This document shows, piece by piece, positions 1 to 8,184 of a stretch of DNA of 64,000 bases. The position numbers were made by a program, and so were the translations under genes. Source of the DNA: Mobula hypostoma (lineage: Eukaryota); NCBI RefSeq assembly GCF_963921235.1, contig NC_086108.1, positions 89,902,001-89,966,000 of the forward strand. Direction: 5' to 3'. Position 1 is the first letter of the stretch. Each line of letters opens with the position of its first letter. The notes under the pieces were generated by a model. That model searched no databases and was not told where the DNA came from. It was given only the letters and a program-made list of their open reading frames with translations.

Positions 1-500
1 CATAATGATTGTGTCGAGACTAGCGTGTGATTTGGATTTAAGTGAGGGAGAGTTGCACAGCGTCAGCCTCACTCTCTCTTCCCAATTCCCATCTGGATCC
101 AGTGACAAGACAGAATCTAGACAGCTGGAGATGGGACTAGGCGCAGTGGATGACCAGGACGTCTTCTGTGTCTTGTCCTGCTCTACACGTTCCACGACGC
201 TTGCAGAGACTGCCTTCTTGACCGTTGGACCTTCCGCTGGTCTCGTCCGCTCAATCCGCCGGAGTCTGTCTTCACATGCTCCCTATCTCACTGAGGGTTT
301 GAGACCCGTCGGCTACCCTCACCTGGTTTAGCCGGCTTGTCGAAGCTGTTGCCCGGGGTGTGGCCGCTGTTGCATGCAGACAGCTACGGGGAGCCACAGG
401 TGAGAGCTGAGTGCCAGGTGGGGAGCAAAGGTGGACTAACCGCCCTGAAAAGGACGCGACATGTCCCCCCACCAGAGGTGCTACCCCTCCCTGACACCCC
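1..500 (-). mobile_element. 5' UTR of an RTE-type non-LTR retrotransposon or its non-autonomous derivative; runs off the window start
   Basis: GC- and CpG-rich structured block, distinct from the Gypsy sequence that resumes at ~511. It begins on the minus strand with an HDV-like fold. The RTE assignment is from recalled resemblance to RTE 5' UTRs, not from an ORF. Confidence 0.6.
318..500 (-). ncRNA. HDV-like self-cleaving ribozyme (predicted)
   Basis: Minus strand order: P1 GGGGTGT (500-494), long J1/2, P2 CTCACCTG (404-397), P3 GGC (395-393), L3 TCCCC.., P3' GCC (364-362), P1' ACACCCC (361-355), GGGCAAC (354-348), P4 GCTT-CGAC-AAGC, GGCTAA (333-328), P2' CAGGTGAG (325-318). Confidence 0.75.
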
Positions 501-3214
501 ATATAGCCCAGTAAGACACATACAAAGAGCATGTCTGGCAAACTAAAGGACATGTGCTGCACAGGGAAGAGAAAAAAATTCAAGTCAAGTTGTAGTTTAA
601 AAAGAGCACTAATCTGCATGCTGTTGGTAAAAAAAAATCTGATAATGATAAGACTGACAGACCTGTGCAGACTTGAGATTTACAATGTGAAAACTAACAA
701 TGTGACAAGCAATATGGCTTACATCAGAAGTGAATGGCAAATTAATTAAAATAGAGGTGGACACTGGCTCGGTTGTTTCAGCCATTCCACAAAATAAGTT
801 TGAGTGACATTTCAAAGTTACTGAACTGAAGCCTGCAGATATCCAGCTATGAACTTACACTGGAGAAAAGATAACTCCTGTGGGAATGACATTCATAATA
901 GTGAAATACAACAACCAACAAGACACATTGGGATTGTATATGTAAAGGCATGAGGACCAGCATTGTGAGGATGTGATTGGCTGAGACAACTACAACTTCA
1001 TTAGAGATCCATCGACTATTTGCAATGAAAGCAAATTAAGAAAGGTAGCGGATGATACCACAGCAGTGCTCAATGATGGCATTGGAATGCTCAAAGATAT
1101 CAGGAGCAAAATAGTGTTAAATGAAAATGCTGCACCCAGGTTTTACAAAACCCATCCGGTTTCTTATACCATCTGTGAGCTGGGTGGCAAGGCTTTCTTT
1201 CCAAGGTTGAGCAGAGTCCATGAGCAACACTACTGGTCTCAGTCACAAAGAATATTGGGTCTGTCAGGATCACTGGTGACTTTAAGTTGAACATCAATCC
1301 AATGCTGAAAGTAGATCAATAGCCTCTGCCCAGGATAAAAGATATCTTTTTAAACCTTTCTGGAAGGAAACATTGCAGCACAGTGGATTCAGCTGATGCC
1401 AGACTATAGATGGAAATCGAAGAAGAGTTCAACGTGTTACTCACCATAAACACATAAAGGGTTTATTGCTACAATAGGCTTATTTTTGGGGTAGCATCTG
1501 CACCCGCACCCTGGCAGAGAGCCATGGACCAGGTGCTGCAAAGCTGATCAGAGATTCAATGTTGCCTGGATGTCAGCATTGTTACCAGCAAGGATGACAA
1601 AGAACATCTCCAATATCTCAAGACTGTTTTAAAAATATTATGAAGATTATGGGCTCAGAGTATAAAGCAACAAGTATGAATTCTGTAAACCAAGCTTCTC
1701 TTACTTTGGTAGCACCATTGAAACATAAGTTTTACACAAGTGTGCTGAGAAAATTCAAGCAGTGGAGGATGCCCCCATCCCAAGGGAGATGTAACAGTTG
1801 TGGTCCTTTTTAAGATTTGTCGATTACTGCTACAGGCTCCTGCCAAACCTGGCTACTGCGTTCCGGCCCTTGAACTCATTACTACAGATTGAGAAGAAAT
1901 AGCAATAAACAACACAGCAAGAGGTGGCTTTCCAAAAGACAAAGGAAATGGTGACTTCAGACACTCTACTCACAAATTATGATCCACACTACCCAGTGAA
2001 GCTTGCTTGTGATGCTTTGCCTAATGTTATAGGTGATATCATGTCATAGGTTTACCTTGGAGAAAGAAATAATTGAAAAATTTATAAAGGACACTTCTCT
2101 TGATGTGTTCTCCCTAATGGAAATCAAAAATCTCCTTATTATGGCAGAGATGATCCAAGAGCAACCAAAAAAGACCCCACACTGCCTTGGGTCTATAGGG
2201 CCACACAAAATGGCTGGAATGTGTTGCAGAAACTCCAGTTCCCTCATTTTTATCAGCACCAGGATGAACTTCACTTGGATGGAGTTTGCTTTATGTGTGG
2301 ATTGTTGTTGTACCATCCAAGCTGAGAGATAGCAGTTTTGGAGGAGCTATATTTCAGTCATCTAGGTGTGGTCAAAATGAAAGTATTGGCTCGAAGCTTT
2401 GTCTGGTGGCCTGGGATAAATCAGCAGATTGAGCACTTTGCCTTGCACTGTTTGGGATGGCAACACATCCAGAGGATGCAAGAGCAATGCCCCTCCATCC
2501 CCAGGAATGGCCTGCATTGCCCATGTGGATTTTGCCAGACGTTTCATGGACACAAATTTCTTGGTAGTACAGGATGCAGCTACAAAGTGGCCAGAAGTGC
2601 TCCCAATAGCTTCCCCCGCAGTCTAACACAATGTTGATGTGTTAAGAAGCCTCTTCTCAAGGAGGAGTGTCCCAGAACACTTAGTCTGTGACAATAGACC
2701 ACAATTTGCTATGGAGAAGTATCAGTCATTCCTGAAATAATGACTGGAATAAGACATATTATATCTGCACCGTAACACCCAGCTACAAATGACTTGGCAG
2801 AAAGGTTTGTCCAGAGTGTAAAGAACACACTGCAAGCAATGTCAGAAGAACATACTGCGCTGCTACTGAATCGGAAGCTCGCCAATTTTTTGCTTACATA
2901 CTGCAATTCAACCCACTCCACAACCAACAACTCACCAGCTATGCTGCTCCTGGGTCATCCCTTGCACTTTCGCTTGGATCTGCTCAAACCCAATCTCAGA
3001 AAAAGTTTGCAGTACAAACCGCTGAGACAAATCGAGCACTTCTCAAACAAGGAGGTTTGATATTTCACTCCTGGACAAGCAGTCCTAGCAAGGGACTACA
3101 GAAATGAGGGGAAAACTGGACCACTCTCCTACACAGTGGAGTTGCATCAGATATCATCTGGACATGACACATTGTTCATTTGAGGAGAACAGAGCCAATT
3201 GTTAGAGAAGAATA

Positions 3215-3395: not shown

Positions 3396-4068
3396 CATTA
3401 AGAAATGTGTCCAGACTGTCAGACCACTTCCTGCAGTCCCAGAGTCAATTCCTGCAGCCACCACGAAGGAGTCCCCAGAACCTGAAATTATTTCACAGCC
3501 ACAAGCCTCACCTGCAAAGCAGAATGACCCCCCTCTTGTCAAGAAAGATGTTATCCCACAAGAGTAGGAAACCCTCCACACTGATTAAATCTTTAGGCTA
3601 AATGTGGCCAATTTAAAATTTTCTATGCTGTGGATGTCTATGTAGTAGATGTATTCCATGCCGGTTGGCTGTGCGTCGTTTCTGACAATGGCATTTGTCT
3701 GTGCAGCTCATCAGTTGATGATGAGCTGTATTCTATAGCATACTGTATATTCTTTATATAAGTTCAGATACATTCTATATAGAGTTGGAGTTTATAGCTA
3801 AGCAGGGAGGAGTGTTGCATGTTTAATATTTTAGTAACATTTGAGTAATATTGTAGATACATTGTTGATTAGCCATTCTTTGTTGTGTATATAATTTATC
3901 ATGCGTTATATGTAAAAATGCATGAATCGCATATGTCATTACACCAGTACATCATATGTGTGTGCCTCACTACAGGTAAGGAACGAAATAGACACATTAT
4001 TCCTGGCAACATACATCAAAGTTGCTGGTCAACGCAGCAGGCCAAGCAGCATCTATAGGAAGAGGCGC

Positions 4069-4104
4069 AGTCGACGTTTCAGGCCGAGACCCTTCGTCAG
4101 GACT
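4069..4104 (-). ncRNA. Minimal hammerhead ribozyme motif (mirror copy)
   Basis: Exact reverse complement of 5188-5223. Confidence 0.85.
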
Positions 4105-5187
4105 AACTGAAGGAAGAGTGAGTAAGGGATTTGAAAGCTGGAGGGGGAGGGGGAGATGCAAAATAATAGGAGAAGACAGGAGGGGGAGGGATAGAGCCGA
4201 GAGCTGGACAGGTGATAGGCAAAAGGGGATACGAGAGGATCATGGGACAGGAGGTCCGGGAAGAAAGACAGGGGAGGGGGTGACCCAGAGGATGGGCAAG
4301 AGGTATATTCAGAGGGACAGAGGGAGAAAAAGGAGAGTGAGAGAAAGAATGTGTGCATAAAAATGAGTAACAGATGGGGTACGAGGGGGAGGTGGGGCCT
4401 TAGCGGAAGTTAGAAAAGTCAATATTCATGCCATCAGGTTGGAGGCTACCCAGACGGAATATAAGGTGTTGTTCCTCCAACCTGAGTGTGGCTTCATCTT
4501 TACAGTAGAGGAGGCCGTGGATAGACATGTCAGAATGGGAATGGGATGTGGAATTAAAATGTGTGGCCACTGGGAGATCCTGCTTTCTCTGGCGGACAGA
4601 GCGTAGATGTTCAGCAAAGCGGTCTCCCAGTCTGCGGCGGGTCTCACCAATATATAAAAGGCCGCAGACTGGGAGACCGCTTTGCTGAACATCTACGCTC
4701 TGTCCGCCAGAGAAAGCAGGATCTCCCAGTGGCCACACATTTTAATTCCACATCCCATTCCCATTCTGACATGTCTATCCACGGCCTCCTCTACTGTAAA
4801 GATGAAGCCACACTCAGGTTGGAGGAACAACACCTTATATTCCGTCTGGGTAGCCTCCAACCTGATGGCATGAACATTGACTTCTCTAACTTCCGCTAAG
4901 GCCCCACCTCCCCCTCGTACCCCATCTGTTACTCATTTTTATGCACACATTCTTTCTCTTACTCTCCTTTTTCTCCCTCTGTCCTTCTGAATATACCTCT
5001 TGCCCATCCTCTGGGTCACCCCCCCCCTTGTCTTTCTTCCCGGACCTCCTGTCCCATGATCCTCTCGTATCCCCTTTTGCCTATCACCTGTCCAGCTCTA
5101 TCCCTCCCCCTCCTGTCTTCTCCTATCATTTTGCATCTCCCCCTCCCCCTCCAGCTTTCAAATCCCTTACTCACTCTTCCTTCAGTT

Positions 5188-5223
5188 AGTCCTGACGAAG
5201 GGTCTCGGCCTGAAACGTCGACT
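5188..5223 (+). ncRNA. Minimal type I hammerhead ribozyme motif in Penelope-like pseudo-LTR
   Basis: AGTC-CTGACGA-AGG-GTCTCGG-CCT-GAAA-CGTC-GACT: stem I AGTC/GACT, CUGANGA and GAAA cores, stem II AGG/CCT, palindromic ACGT stem III, GUC triplet. Confidence 0.85.
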
Positions 5224-8184
5224 GCGCCTCTTCCTATAGATGTTGCTTGGCCTGCTGCGTTGACCAGCAACTTTGATGTATGTTGCTTGAATTTCCAGCA
5301 TCTGCAGTATTCCTGTTGTTTACATTATTCCTGGCTCTGTGTTTTGCTTTTGATTCATTTTAATGTTTTGGAGTGACAATGAGTGATGGTGGAGGCAGAT
5401 ATATTAAGGTCACTTAACAATCTCTCAGATAGGCTCATGGATGATAGAAAATTGGAGTGTAATGTTGGAGGAAAGGGTTATATTGATCTTAGAGTAGGTT
5501 TAAAGTGCAGCACATCATCTTGGGCTGAAGGGCCTATACTGTGCTATAATGCTTTTGCTCTGTGTTCAATGATTAGCTTTTATTGTTTTCTCTATGCAAC
5601 TCAAGGCAGATGTGATACTTACAGGAGTCTAGGTAGAAGATAACTTGTGATGTGGTATGTTCTTATTCCAGTTTATTCTGAGCTTCAGCGTACTTATGAT
5701 GAATGAACTCAATGTCAACTTGTCCGTTCCACCATTCTGAGCAGACATTTGCTGGGAGTTCTCTCAAGTAACTCATTTTCATAACATCCTTGAATCATTC
5801 CTTTGTCCACTGAGTAATCTATTGCATTGATGGGACTCAGAGTCTGGTGTCAAGCATGAAAATGACACAGACAGTCTATTAAAACCTCAGTGCTGGGAAT
5901 ATTGGCAAAGAAGAGGTTATTCATCTTGGTTTAATTATTCTGGCTGTGGAATTGCAAGATTTGATGATCTTCATGGCCACCAGGAGAACGTAGAACATGA
6001 CATAAAACAGTACAGCACAGTATAGGCCATTTGGATCATGATGTTTTGCTGACCCTTTACATCACTCTAAGATCTATCTAATCCTTACCTCCAACAGAGC
6101 CCTCCATGTTTATATCATCCATGTGCCTGCTTTAAGAATATATAAATGTCCCTAATGTGTCTGCCCCTACTGCTATCCCAGCACATGTTCCATGCACTTA
6201 CCAATCTCAGTGTATAAAACTTACCTCTGACATCCCCCCTGGCCCCTGTACTTTCCTCCAAGTTCAACCAAGGAGACAAACTTGGCCTTTATTAACATCT
6301 CATTCCAAAGGCAGATCTGTGAGAGTACTGCATAGAAATGTTAATTTAGATTTTGTGCTTGAGTCTCCAAACGTTAACCCACATCTAATCCAGACATAAA
6401 GGGTATAATGCATTACAAATAGGAGCAGAGTTAGGCTATTTGGCCTAGTCAGTCTGTTCTGCCATTCCAAGGTAGCTGATTTACTATCCCTCTCAACTGC
6501 ATTCTTTTGCCTTCTCCCCGTAACCTTTGATGTCCTTACTAATCAAGAACGTACCAAATTTCGCTTTAAATGTACCCTATAACTTGGCCACAACAGCCAC
6601 CTGTGGTGATGATTCCACAGATTCACCATCTGTGTGCCTTGTACTATGTAACTGCACGTTTTTATTGCAATGGAATTTATGCCCAATTTTTTTAACATTA
6701 CCATTTATGGTCATTGCAGTGATGGCAAGCGTTTAATGCAGAAAGGGCTCAGCCAAGATGTAAAAAAAAATGGGAAAATCTAAACAAACTAAGTGACCAA
6801 AATATCTTTGCAACACAATTTCATGAGCTCTTTTAGAAGTATAGCATAATTGCTTATTCTGCTCAATAATACTTGAGCATGAAGATAAGTAATTTCAAAA
6901 CAAAGCTGGACTTCAAATAAAATCTGAACAGAACAACAAAGGATTGTCTGACTGATAATTTACACATTCCTGGATATATACTGCACCATCATTAAACATC
7001 AAACCAGTTCAATCAGATGTGACACTGAGTGTCTTGTAAAACATCAATGTTAGGACTACATTCAAAGAGGCTTTAAGAAGGGAAAACTCTGTGAGAAAGT
7101 AATGTAAGTGCTGATTAAAAACATCTCTGACTTTTTTTGTTAAAATTGCACTCAGTCAGCAGTTTCCCCTTGGACCTACCTTATTTGAAAAGATATTATG
7201 AATTTAAATATTTATTGGTTTTAGTGTATGATTCTCACTAAGCAAGAGAAAATATTTATTGGAGCTTGTAGAGAGGTAAGTAAAGAAAGTCAATTTTTGC
7301 ATCGGTACAAATTGAAGATATGTAAATGTCTAATGCGGTGAAATTCTTCAAGCTGAAAAGAAAAATACAAAGGTAATCAGCTAGTGTAGAGAATGAGAAA
7401 TTCTTCAGTCAGCCTGCCAGAAGGTGAAGCTGAGGTCTGAAAAGGAACATTAATTAAAATTTCACATATCAATTAAAAAATTAACTTGAGCACATAATAT
7501 TTCTTACATCAATTAAAAATATTAAAGCTAAACAAAGTAATGTCAGAAAAGTGTCCCTCATCTCCTAAATCAAGGAAAGCGCTGGGATTTAGGATCCTCT
7601 TCCAGCTCTGGCCTGACACAGGATCAAAGTAGTCATCTACTGTGTATTGCTGGAGAATCCATCCGAGATTAGGTCTCAAATCTGTCTGAGTCTTGGACTG
7701 TGATATGTCACAGCTTACTTCACAGTTAAGTTTTGTGCAGATTCACTGACTGCAGTCATCACATTTGAGCTCAATGACTGTGCTTCAACCAGTCAAAATT
7801 AGTTTATCAGAATGTCCTGAAGTCAATCGAAATGAATGGTGTGAGAGTGCAGTGAACAGTCTGGTTACTGTGAGTTACCAACAGACAAATTTATATCCCC
7901 TTTTCTCAATTTAGAAATGGACGAATAACTGTCTGCATTCCTTAAATAAGTGAGTAGCCTTTTTCACAGAAATGAAAATGCATAGTGTATGTTTTCAAAT
8001 TATGTTAGGAGTGCTCCAAACCTAATCAAGTGTCTGAATTTTTTTTCTGTCCTTTTTATTCAAAGGAATAAGAACCATTGGGATATTTATGTTGTAGATT
8101 TATATGAAACTTTGAAATATATCTAATTAAAATATAGTGATTTGAATTTGCTTCTATTCTGTAATGTTTTGTTTTAGTTATTGA

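What the first reader, a model, noticed from the sequence alone, without database searches (positions are those of the whole stretch)
318..500. HDV-like ribozyme with a hairpin inserted into L3 at the 5' end of an RTE-type element
Seen on the minus strand: every element of the nested double pseudoknot occurs in the canonical order (7-bp P1, 8-bp P2, 3-bp P3, TCC in L3 able to pair with GG for P1.1). GGGCAAC follows P1' as in hepatitis delta virus, and GGCTAA carries the candidate catalytic C (plus-strand position 331). G+1 (500) lies within ~10 nt of where Gypsy sequence resumes. Established: HDV-like ribozymes process the 5' ends of R2 and RTE retrotransposons. Unusual: L3 is ~28 nt and contains its own hairpin (GCTGTCTGCATGCAACAGC), whereas HDV L3 is ~7-8 nt. 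The ~90-nt J1/2 also contains CTGGCACTC, which could sequester the 5' P1 strand as an alternative inactive fold (inference).
Basis: partly seen in the sequence, partly recalled or inferred. Interest (0 to 1): 0.8.

Follow-up and report, generated by a model that had tools for sequence, protein, structure and literature searches.

The report
Retrotransposon ribozyme with extra docking hairpin

Summary
The stretch heads a ~550-nt non-autonomous RTE-type retroelement (2,561 pattern matches in the genome). Copies begin at window 509, not 500. In distant relatives P1 covaries only with the 509 register (3 two-sided changes against 0). [quoted passage not shown] This copy has two P1 mismatches and is decayed. 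The L3 hairpin is conserved in four genomic families and three metagenomic elements, and absent from homologous ribozymes with a 7-nt L3. Its loop is complementary to a site ~40 nt past P2, with two-sided changes. The same loop and site occur outside the ribozyme in other RTE 5' UTRs. Cleavage is untested. I found no L3 insertion in print, but the key primary papers were not readable. The scan noted this family twice before on other DNA (e1-9858258, e1-8169641). Verdict: a new variant of a known kind.

The parts
1..509 (-). Non-autonomous bipartite RTE-type retroelement (family A). It continues about 40 nt past the window start and ends in a short AAC-repeat tail. About 500 nt of RTE 5' UTR are joined to about 40 nt of RTE 3' end.
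510..521 (-). 5' copy of the 12-nt target-site duplication; the other copy lies just outside the window
   Evidence: L001
503..509 (-). True P1 5' strand; predicted cleavage 5' of G509. Two mismatches in this copy (506, 504).
490..499 (-).
419..489 (-). Structured interior of the J1/2 domain; sequence varies between families
409..418 (-). P1.2 3' strand
396..407 (-). P2 5' strand (extended, 11-12 bp)
393..395 (-). P3 5' strand
   Evidence: invariant in 11 of 11 rows
385..392 (-). Canonical part of L3: U20, C21, C22 (P1.1), two variable bases, G25, U26, A
366..384 (-). Hairpin inserted in L3 (5-6 bp stem, 7-nt loop at 378-372)
362..364 (-). P3 3' strand
355..361 (-). P1 3' strand
353..354 (-). 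GG of P1.1
   Evidence: 10 of 11 rows paired at each position
333..348 (-). P4 hairpin (one mismatch in this copy)
   Evidence: 5 of 6 pairs with two-sided change
328..332 (-). J4/2 with candidate general-acid C75 at 331
315..327 (-). P2 3' strand with one bulged C
273..279 (-). Predicted docking site for the L3-hairpin loop, directly before a conserved TGAAG
522..3060 (+). Decayed Gypsy-like pol region into which the element is inserted in antisense orientation; only integrase pieces were confirmed

Best explanation
This is the 5' end of a short non-autonomous RTE-type retroelement whose RNA is predicted to fold as an HDV-like ribozyme that would cut itself out of host read-through transcripts just 5' of G509, and whose L3 carries an extra hairpin that likely docks on a downstream site. 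Shown: the element's boundaries, the pile-up of 5' ends at 509, conservation and covariation of P1, P1.2, P2 and P4, and the hairpin's position after G25-U26. Inferred: cleavage by C331 as general acid with Mg2+; activation by the P1.2 helix plus long P2 and short linkers, as measured for drz-Agam-2-1; copying in trans by an autonomous RTE protein that recognises the retained 3' end; and a further pseudoknot between the hairpin loop (378-372) and 279-273. The window copy is decayed and may cut poorly, or at 500.
For: 5' ends: of 58 family-A loci chosen without the 5' sequence, 47 could be anchored. Of these, 37 carry the upstream 9-mer, 8 start within it or at 500 (only 2 show no trace of it) and 2 were scored as starting later. 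Conservation is 0.72-0.94 over 509-500 and falls to 0.53 at 510 and 0.40 at 511, with no step at 500. Covariation on 11 natural sequences: P1 at 509 is 100% paired with 3 two-sided pairs; P1 at 500 is 93% paired with 0. Whole structure: 16 of 48 pairs with two-sided change against 5.0 shuffled, and 36-46% paired when slid. The 509 register is favoured by 5.5-13.6 kcal/mol in 8 of 8 tested sequences. RNAalifold finds P1.2, P2, P3, the L3 hairpin and P4 unaided. Homologous ribozymes with a 7-nt L3 align with a clean 21-22 nt gap (L119, L251). Four of 17 family-B loci run on into a decayed endonuclease/RT frame, and three of them end in the same tail. Loop-site pairing: 88.5% paired, 4 of 6 pairs two-sided. 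PMC4908430: P1.2 plus extended P2 speeds cleavage up to about 1,000-fold.
Against: No cleavage was measured. P3 is invariant and the L3 stem shows only one-sided changes in the alignment, so neither has covariation support there; one two-sided stem change is seen only in the decayed L114. The G after the hairpin can pair with U20 and might compete with the U20-G25 pair that PMC6326823 calls crucial. The window copy itself favours the 500 register by 4 kcal/mol. The alignment is small, related and hand-picked, and I chose its start column. The loop-site duplex is individually weak: 5-116 of 500 shuffles were as good, and families C and L133 gave their best duplex at other sites. A complementary hairpin turns up in about 30% of shuffled upstream windows. 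The family-D compensation consists of two CpG-type transitions. L130 has the site without a hairpin and L178 has one mismatch. No autonomous copy of family A itself was found.
Confidence: 0.78

Rival explanations
1. The ribozyme is active at 509, but the L3 hairpin is a tolerated passenger. Its complementarity to the downstream site is chance or a relic, with no tertiary contact.
For: Insert sits at a peripheral spot 3' of G25; homologues work, or at least persist, without it. The duplex is short and weak, the chance rate is about 30% per window, and the site exists in L130 without a hairpin.
Against: Same-column complementarity is kept through different sequences in family D and L133 and in L125, L129 and the L250/L251 family. 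The stem is kept in elements whose proteins are far apart on the tree.
Confidence: 0.33
2. The fold is conserved but does not cleave (or the hairpin blocks it). The 5' end at 509 is set by an internal promoter or by reverse-transcription stalling, and the structure serves protection or protein binding.
For: No activity data. U20 can mispair with the G after the hairpin. L1Tc's homologous region is also an internal promoter (PMC4035085).
Against: C75, G25, U20-C21-C22 and the GG are kept in all four family consensuses while neighbours vary. The 5' end falls exactly on the first base of a covarying 7-bp P1.
Confidence: 0.12
3. One reading: cleavage at G500, with the nine upstream bases added or duplicated at each insertion.
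For: The second 7-mer pairs perfectly in families A-D, and the window copy prefers it. R2 ribozymes can use either of two duplicated P1 strands (PMC3774820).
Against: The nine bases are the same in 37 of 47 copies and differ from a plain duplication, so they are templated. In L115, L179, L133 and L119 only the first register pairs fully (7 against 4, 6, 6, 5 pairs).
Confidence: 0.04
4. The hairpin loop is a self-complementary kissing loop that dimerises element RNAs, like the L3 palindrome seen in CPEB3 crystals.
For: The loop is palindromic in families A-C, L115 and L179. CPEB3 L3 dimers are reported (bioRxiv 10.1101/2022.09.22.508989).
Against: Family D and the L250/L251 family have lost the palindrome but keep complementarity to the downstream site.
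Confidence: 0.06

Closest known systems
drz-Agam-2-1, HDV-like ribozyme with a P1.2 domain (Webb et al. 2016, PMC4908430; parts 1-2 of 4 read)
   Same: Nested double pseudoknot, large structured J1/2 closed by P1.2, short linkers, P2 extended to about 12 bp
   Different: No L3 hairpin or downstream docking site was mentioned in the parts read; activity was measured there, not here
HDV-like ribozymes at 5' ends of RTE, R2, R4, Ingi/L1Tc and LOA elements (Ruminski et al. 2011, not readable here; cited through PMC5786205 and PMC6765202, passages)
   Same: Predicted cut site coincides with the element's 5' end; release from co-transcripts
   Different: Known length variation is in J1/2 and P4 (PMC8256844, figure legend); here L3 is 26-29 nt with its own hairpin
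Bipartite non-autonomous LINEs (RIME, NARTc, Bov-A, R2 SIDEs; Kojima 2018, PMC5786205, passages)
   Same: Only the 5' and 3' ends of the LINE are kept; RTE is one of four clades said to do this
   Different: This family's direct autonomous parent was not found in the genome; whether it is already in Repbase could not be checked
Genomic HDV and CPEB3 ribozymes (bioRxiv 2022.09.22.508989, PMC1874588, PMC13635239; passages and part 1)
   Same: U20, C21/C22-GG P1.1, G25, C75, and the G-C-A-A trefoil region after P1.1
   Different: L3 is 7-8 nt in those; G1 pairs with C here rather than U

Membership tests
HDV-like ribozymes | 6-7 bp P1 starting with G at the RNA 5' end | tested here: met
   for the family; this copy has only 5 of 7 pairs; L133 begins with A
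HDV-like ribozymes | P2, 3-bp P3 and P4 in nested double-pseudoknot order | tested here: met
   P2 and P4 covary, P3 invariant
HDV-like ribozymes | P1.1 between L3 pyrimidines and J1/4 GG | tested here: met
   10 of 11 rows paired at each position; no covariation
HDV-like ribozymes | U20 and G25 in L3, C75 and following A's in J4/2 | tested here: met
   kept while L3 positions 23-24 and J4/2 position 76 vary
HDV-like ribozymes | L3 of 7-8 nt | tested here: not met
   28 nt with hairpin; this is a typical rather than proven-essential feature, hence 'variant'
HDV-like ribozymes | Mg2+-dependent self-cleavage abolished by C75U | not testable with these tools
   needs in vitro assay
HDV-like ribozymes | Match to an Rfam HDV-like model | tested here: not met
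   relatives with canonical L3 (L119, L251) also do not match, so the test is insensitive
RTE clade non-LTR retrotransposons | Single ORF with AP endonuclease and RT | tested here: met
   family-B continuations; homologues of about 1,060 aa at 53-67% identity; some named CFDP2-like (link of that name to RTE/Bov-B is recalled)
RTE clade non-LTR retrotransposons | Short 3' UTR with short tandem-repeat tail and target-site duplications | tested here: met
RTE clade non-LTR retrotransposons | RT phylogeny grouping with named RTE elements | not tested
   no named RTE references were available; tree holds only relatives found here
Bipartite non-autonomous LINEs | Only 5' and 3' termini of the LINE, no ORF, no tRNA-derived head | tested here: met
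   element starts at the ribozyme; no tRNA scan was run

The most novel reading that the evidence does not exclude
A subgroup of RTE retrotransposons has fused two RNA modules. A loop-and-docking-site pseudoknot that other RTE 5' UTRs keep outside the ribozyme has its hairpin placed inside the catalytic loop L3, giving an HDV-like ribozyme with a third pseudoknot that couples self-cleavage to folding of the downstream 5' UTR, and this head has been swapped between distant RTE lineages.
Probability: 0.35. Interest if true: 0.72.

Novelty: new variant of a known kind. Interest (0 to 1): 0.55.

Why it matters
Ribozyme-headed RTE elements are known, so the basic biology is not surprising. The L3 insertion matters for three reasons. 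L3 is part of the active site and is treated as fixed at 7-8 nt, so length-limited searches would likely miss this whole subgroup. It points to a third natural site where domains can be grafted onto the HDV fold. And if the loop really docks downstream, it would be a natural tertiary contact linking the catalytic loop to the rest of a retrotransposon 5' UTR. RTE UTRs are being used in gene-writing platforms (PMC13708176), so their structural modules have practical interest. The test is a simple in vitro assay, and natural with/without-hairpin pairs are in hand.

Tried and rejected
Rfam found nothing relevant at the site or in nine relatives. My first guess of a Vingi/Ingi parent was dropped once family-B copies ran into an RTE-like frame. 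A strict descriptor on 73 upstream regions of metagenomic and MAG loci found one convincing ribozyme (L119) and three chance-like hits, and missed L115, L133 and L179, so it is specific but insensitive. A pattern scan of viral contigs gave one unrelated match. A pattern for an autonomous form of family A gave 0 matches. A DNA search of the element's 3' part added nothing. Sequencing runs: 20 of 24 listed runs hold part of the stretch, but the RNA runs are assembled contigs that cannot show starts. One contig in X19 begins at the 509-equivalent base right after letters I recall as an Illumina adapter end, and contigs in X12 and X16 stop at the same edge; I treat these as weak hints only. The two raw-read runs had no reads on the stretch. 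The family-B duplex row was mis-anchored and is ignored. L043 and L069 were misclassified, although both carry the upstream 9-mer; I left the counts as printed. The first genome search was biased toward copies resembling the window's 5' end and was not used for counts. A single origin of the L3 hairpin on the protein tree was not supported. Ruminski 2011, Kojima 2011, and ids I took to be Webb and Luptak 2011, Webb 2009 and Weinberg 2015 were not held. The last search did not ground the CFDP2-RTE link.

Full report
Observation. A strict descriptor of the double pseudoknot with free L3 length hits the 64-kb window once, at this site. It gives no hit in 40 resampled strands or 2,000 GC-matched 400-mers. 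Rfam does not recognise it.

The element. A genome search gave 2,676 candidates, and a core pattern gave 2,561 exact matches against 6 for the reversed control. Copies are about 560 nt long, carry target-site duplications and end in a short AAC-repeat tail. They average 96.8% identity to their consensus over the first part (58 loci). The window copy runs from 509 to about 40 nt beyond the window start, is flanked by a 12-nt duplication (521-510), and sits antisense in a decayed Gypsy-like region (integrase pieces). Three older or sister families share the same head: B (18 matches), and C and D (among 427 matches). Four of 17 B loci continue into a decayed endonuclease/RT frame, and three of them end in the same tail as the short B copies. 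The endonuclease has 177 homologues; many of the 120 listed are single frames of about 1,060 aa with endonuclease and RT domains. A full-length metagenomic element (L119) ends in nearly the same tail as family A. The element is therefore a bipartite non-autonomous derivative of an RTE-type LINE. The clade name rests on architecture and on recalled motifs, not on a tree with named references. No autonomous copy of family A itself was found.

Cleavage site. The family begins with two identical 7-mers nine bases apart. In 58 loci chosen without the 5' sequence (29, 29), 47 could be anchored: 37 carry the upstream 9-mer, 8 start within it or at 500, and 2 were scored as later. Eleven had no anchor, mostly through 5' truncation. 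Conservation drops at 510, not at 501. Distant relatives decide the register. In L115, L179, L133 and L119 the P1 3' strand has changed, and only the first 7-mer has changed with it. On an 11-sequence alignment P1 at 509 is 100% paired with three two-sided changes, while P1 at 500 is 93% paired with none. The second 7-mer instead pairs with 418-409, a helix found by single-sequence folding and by RNAalifold, with two two-sided changes. The resulting architecture is P1, a 3-nt linker, P1.2, a 1-nt linker and an 11-12 bp P2. That is what Webb et al. 2016 (PMC4908430, parts 1-2 of 4 read) showed to accelerate drz-Agam-2-1 by up to three orders of magnitude. Of 46 scorable family copies, 21 keep a full P1, G1, UCC and C75.

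The L3 hairpin. Homologous ribozymes with a 7-nt L3 exist in a metagenomic element (L119) and in this genome (L251). They align with a clean gap after G25-U26, so the canonical L3 residues are intact and the hairpin is an insert on their 3' side. It is present in families A-D, L115, L133, L179 and, decayed, L114. The stem is fully paired in the alignment but shows only one-sided changes, while the loop varies. One risk to activity is that the G after the hairpin can pair with U20. On a tree of 32 protein rows the hairpin label needs four changes, at least three forced by well-supported branches (labels are my reading, three rows are short). This suggests head swapping or repeated loss rather than one late gain.

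Docking site. The loop is complementary to five or six bases just before a conserved TGAAG downstream of P2 (window 279-273). Family D changes one pair on both sides (10 of 11 copies concordant, against 55 of 58 for the other pair in family A). L133 changes four pairs in the same gap-free columns. In elements whose ribozyme has a short L3 or whose head is different (the L250/L251 family, L129, L178, L125), a hairpin with a matching loop lies outside the ribozyme, upstream of the same site, and L125 shows a further two-sided change. Against this: each duplex is weak, about 30% of shuffled windows contain some complementary hairpin, the D change is CpG-like, L130 has the site without a hairpin, and L119 shows no such site in the search. 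My evidence points to a single-stranded site after that hairpin and adds the cases outside the ribozyme.

Mechanism. Most likely the element has no need of its own promoter. It is transcribed within host RNAs, the ribozyme cuts 5' of G509 using C331 as general acid with Mg2+ (by analogy; PMC13635239, part 1 read), and an RTE protein copies the released RNA from its retained 3' end. Boundaries and pairings are shown; cleavage, activation by P1.2, trans-mobilisation and docking are inferred.

What is known. Ribozymes at RTE, R2, R4, Ingi and LOA 5' ends, and bipartite RTE derivatives, are established (PMC5786205, PMC6765202, PMC3774820, PMC4035085; passages read). A consensus figure lists only J1/2 and P4 as expandable (PMC8256844, legend). 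Searches showed no report of a hairpin in L3 or of this docking contact. For most hits I saw only the listing. For PMC6326823, PMC9901934, PMC1874588, PMC8495972, PMC13708176 and bioRxiv 2022.09.22.508989 I saw passages. The main primary papers on retrotransposon ribozymes and their supplements could not be read, so novelty is provisional.

Verdict. The feature is real, the site is corrected, and it is a new variant of a known kind. Interest 0.55.

Noticed in passing
window 1-12 and about 12 nt beyond the window start (L031); L110, L111, L113, L115: The junction of the two halves of the short element is an 11-bp hairpin. In full-length relatives the same 5' UTR segment is complementary to the 3' end about 3-4 kb away, with different sequences in families A, B and L115. 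This long-range helix may guide the internal deletion (also noted in e1-8169641).
   Followed up: partly
L233-L262 (e.g. L235:216-515, L262, L250): A young RTE family with long open frames in this genome mostly lacks the ribozyme head. Many copies instead start with a shared GC-rich sequence, which in L235 and L262 extends into a glyoxalase-superfamily coding piece (Pfam E 5e-12; resembles methylmalonyl-CoA epimerase from recall). This suggests capture of host-gene sequence as a new 5' end. L251 alone of the 30 showed a canonical ribozyme.
   Followed up: partly
window 510 and equivalent position in copies: T precedes the first G in 25 of 47 copies. It may come from untemplated A added to the cDNA or from target preference; U at -1 is the best base for HDV ribozyme cleavage (PMC1874588).
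   Followed up: no
L133:114-385: This element has the loop-complementary word three times downstream of the ribozyme, and its protein falls far from the other hairpin-bearing elements on the tree.
   Followed up: partly
L124, L134-L136, L145, L129, L173: Other RTE relatives appear to carry different HDV-like heads with 7-nt L3 loops; read by eye only.
   Followed up: no
window 4029-4640 and 4661-5278: Two long near-mirror copies of another repeat face each other around 4640-4660, forming a large inverted repeat; seen by eye.
   Followed up: no
L084/L085; L043: Two family-A copies lie head to tail 576 nt apart; L043 has a ~140-nt insertion in the junction hairpin.
   Followed up: no
L194-L201: RTE-like sequences occur in contigs of bacterial MAGs, most likely eukaryotic contamination.
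   Followed up: no
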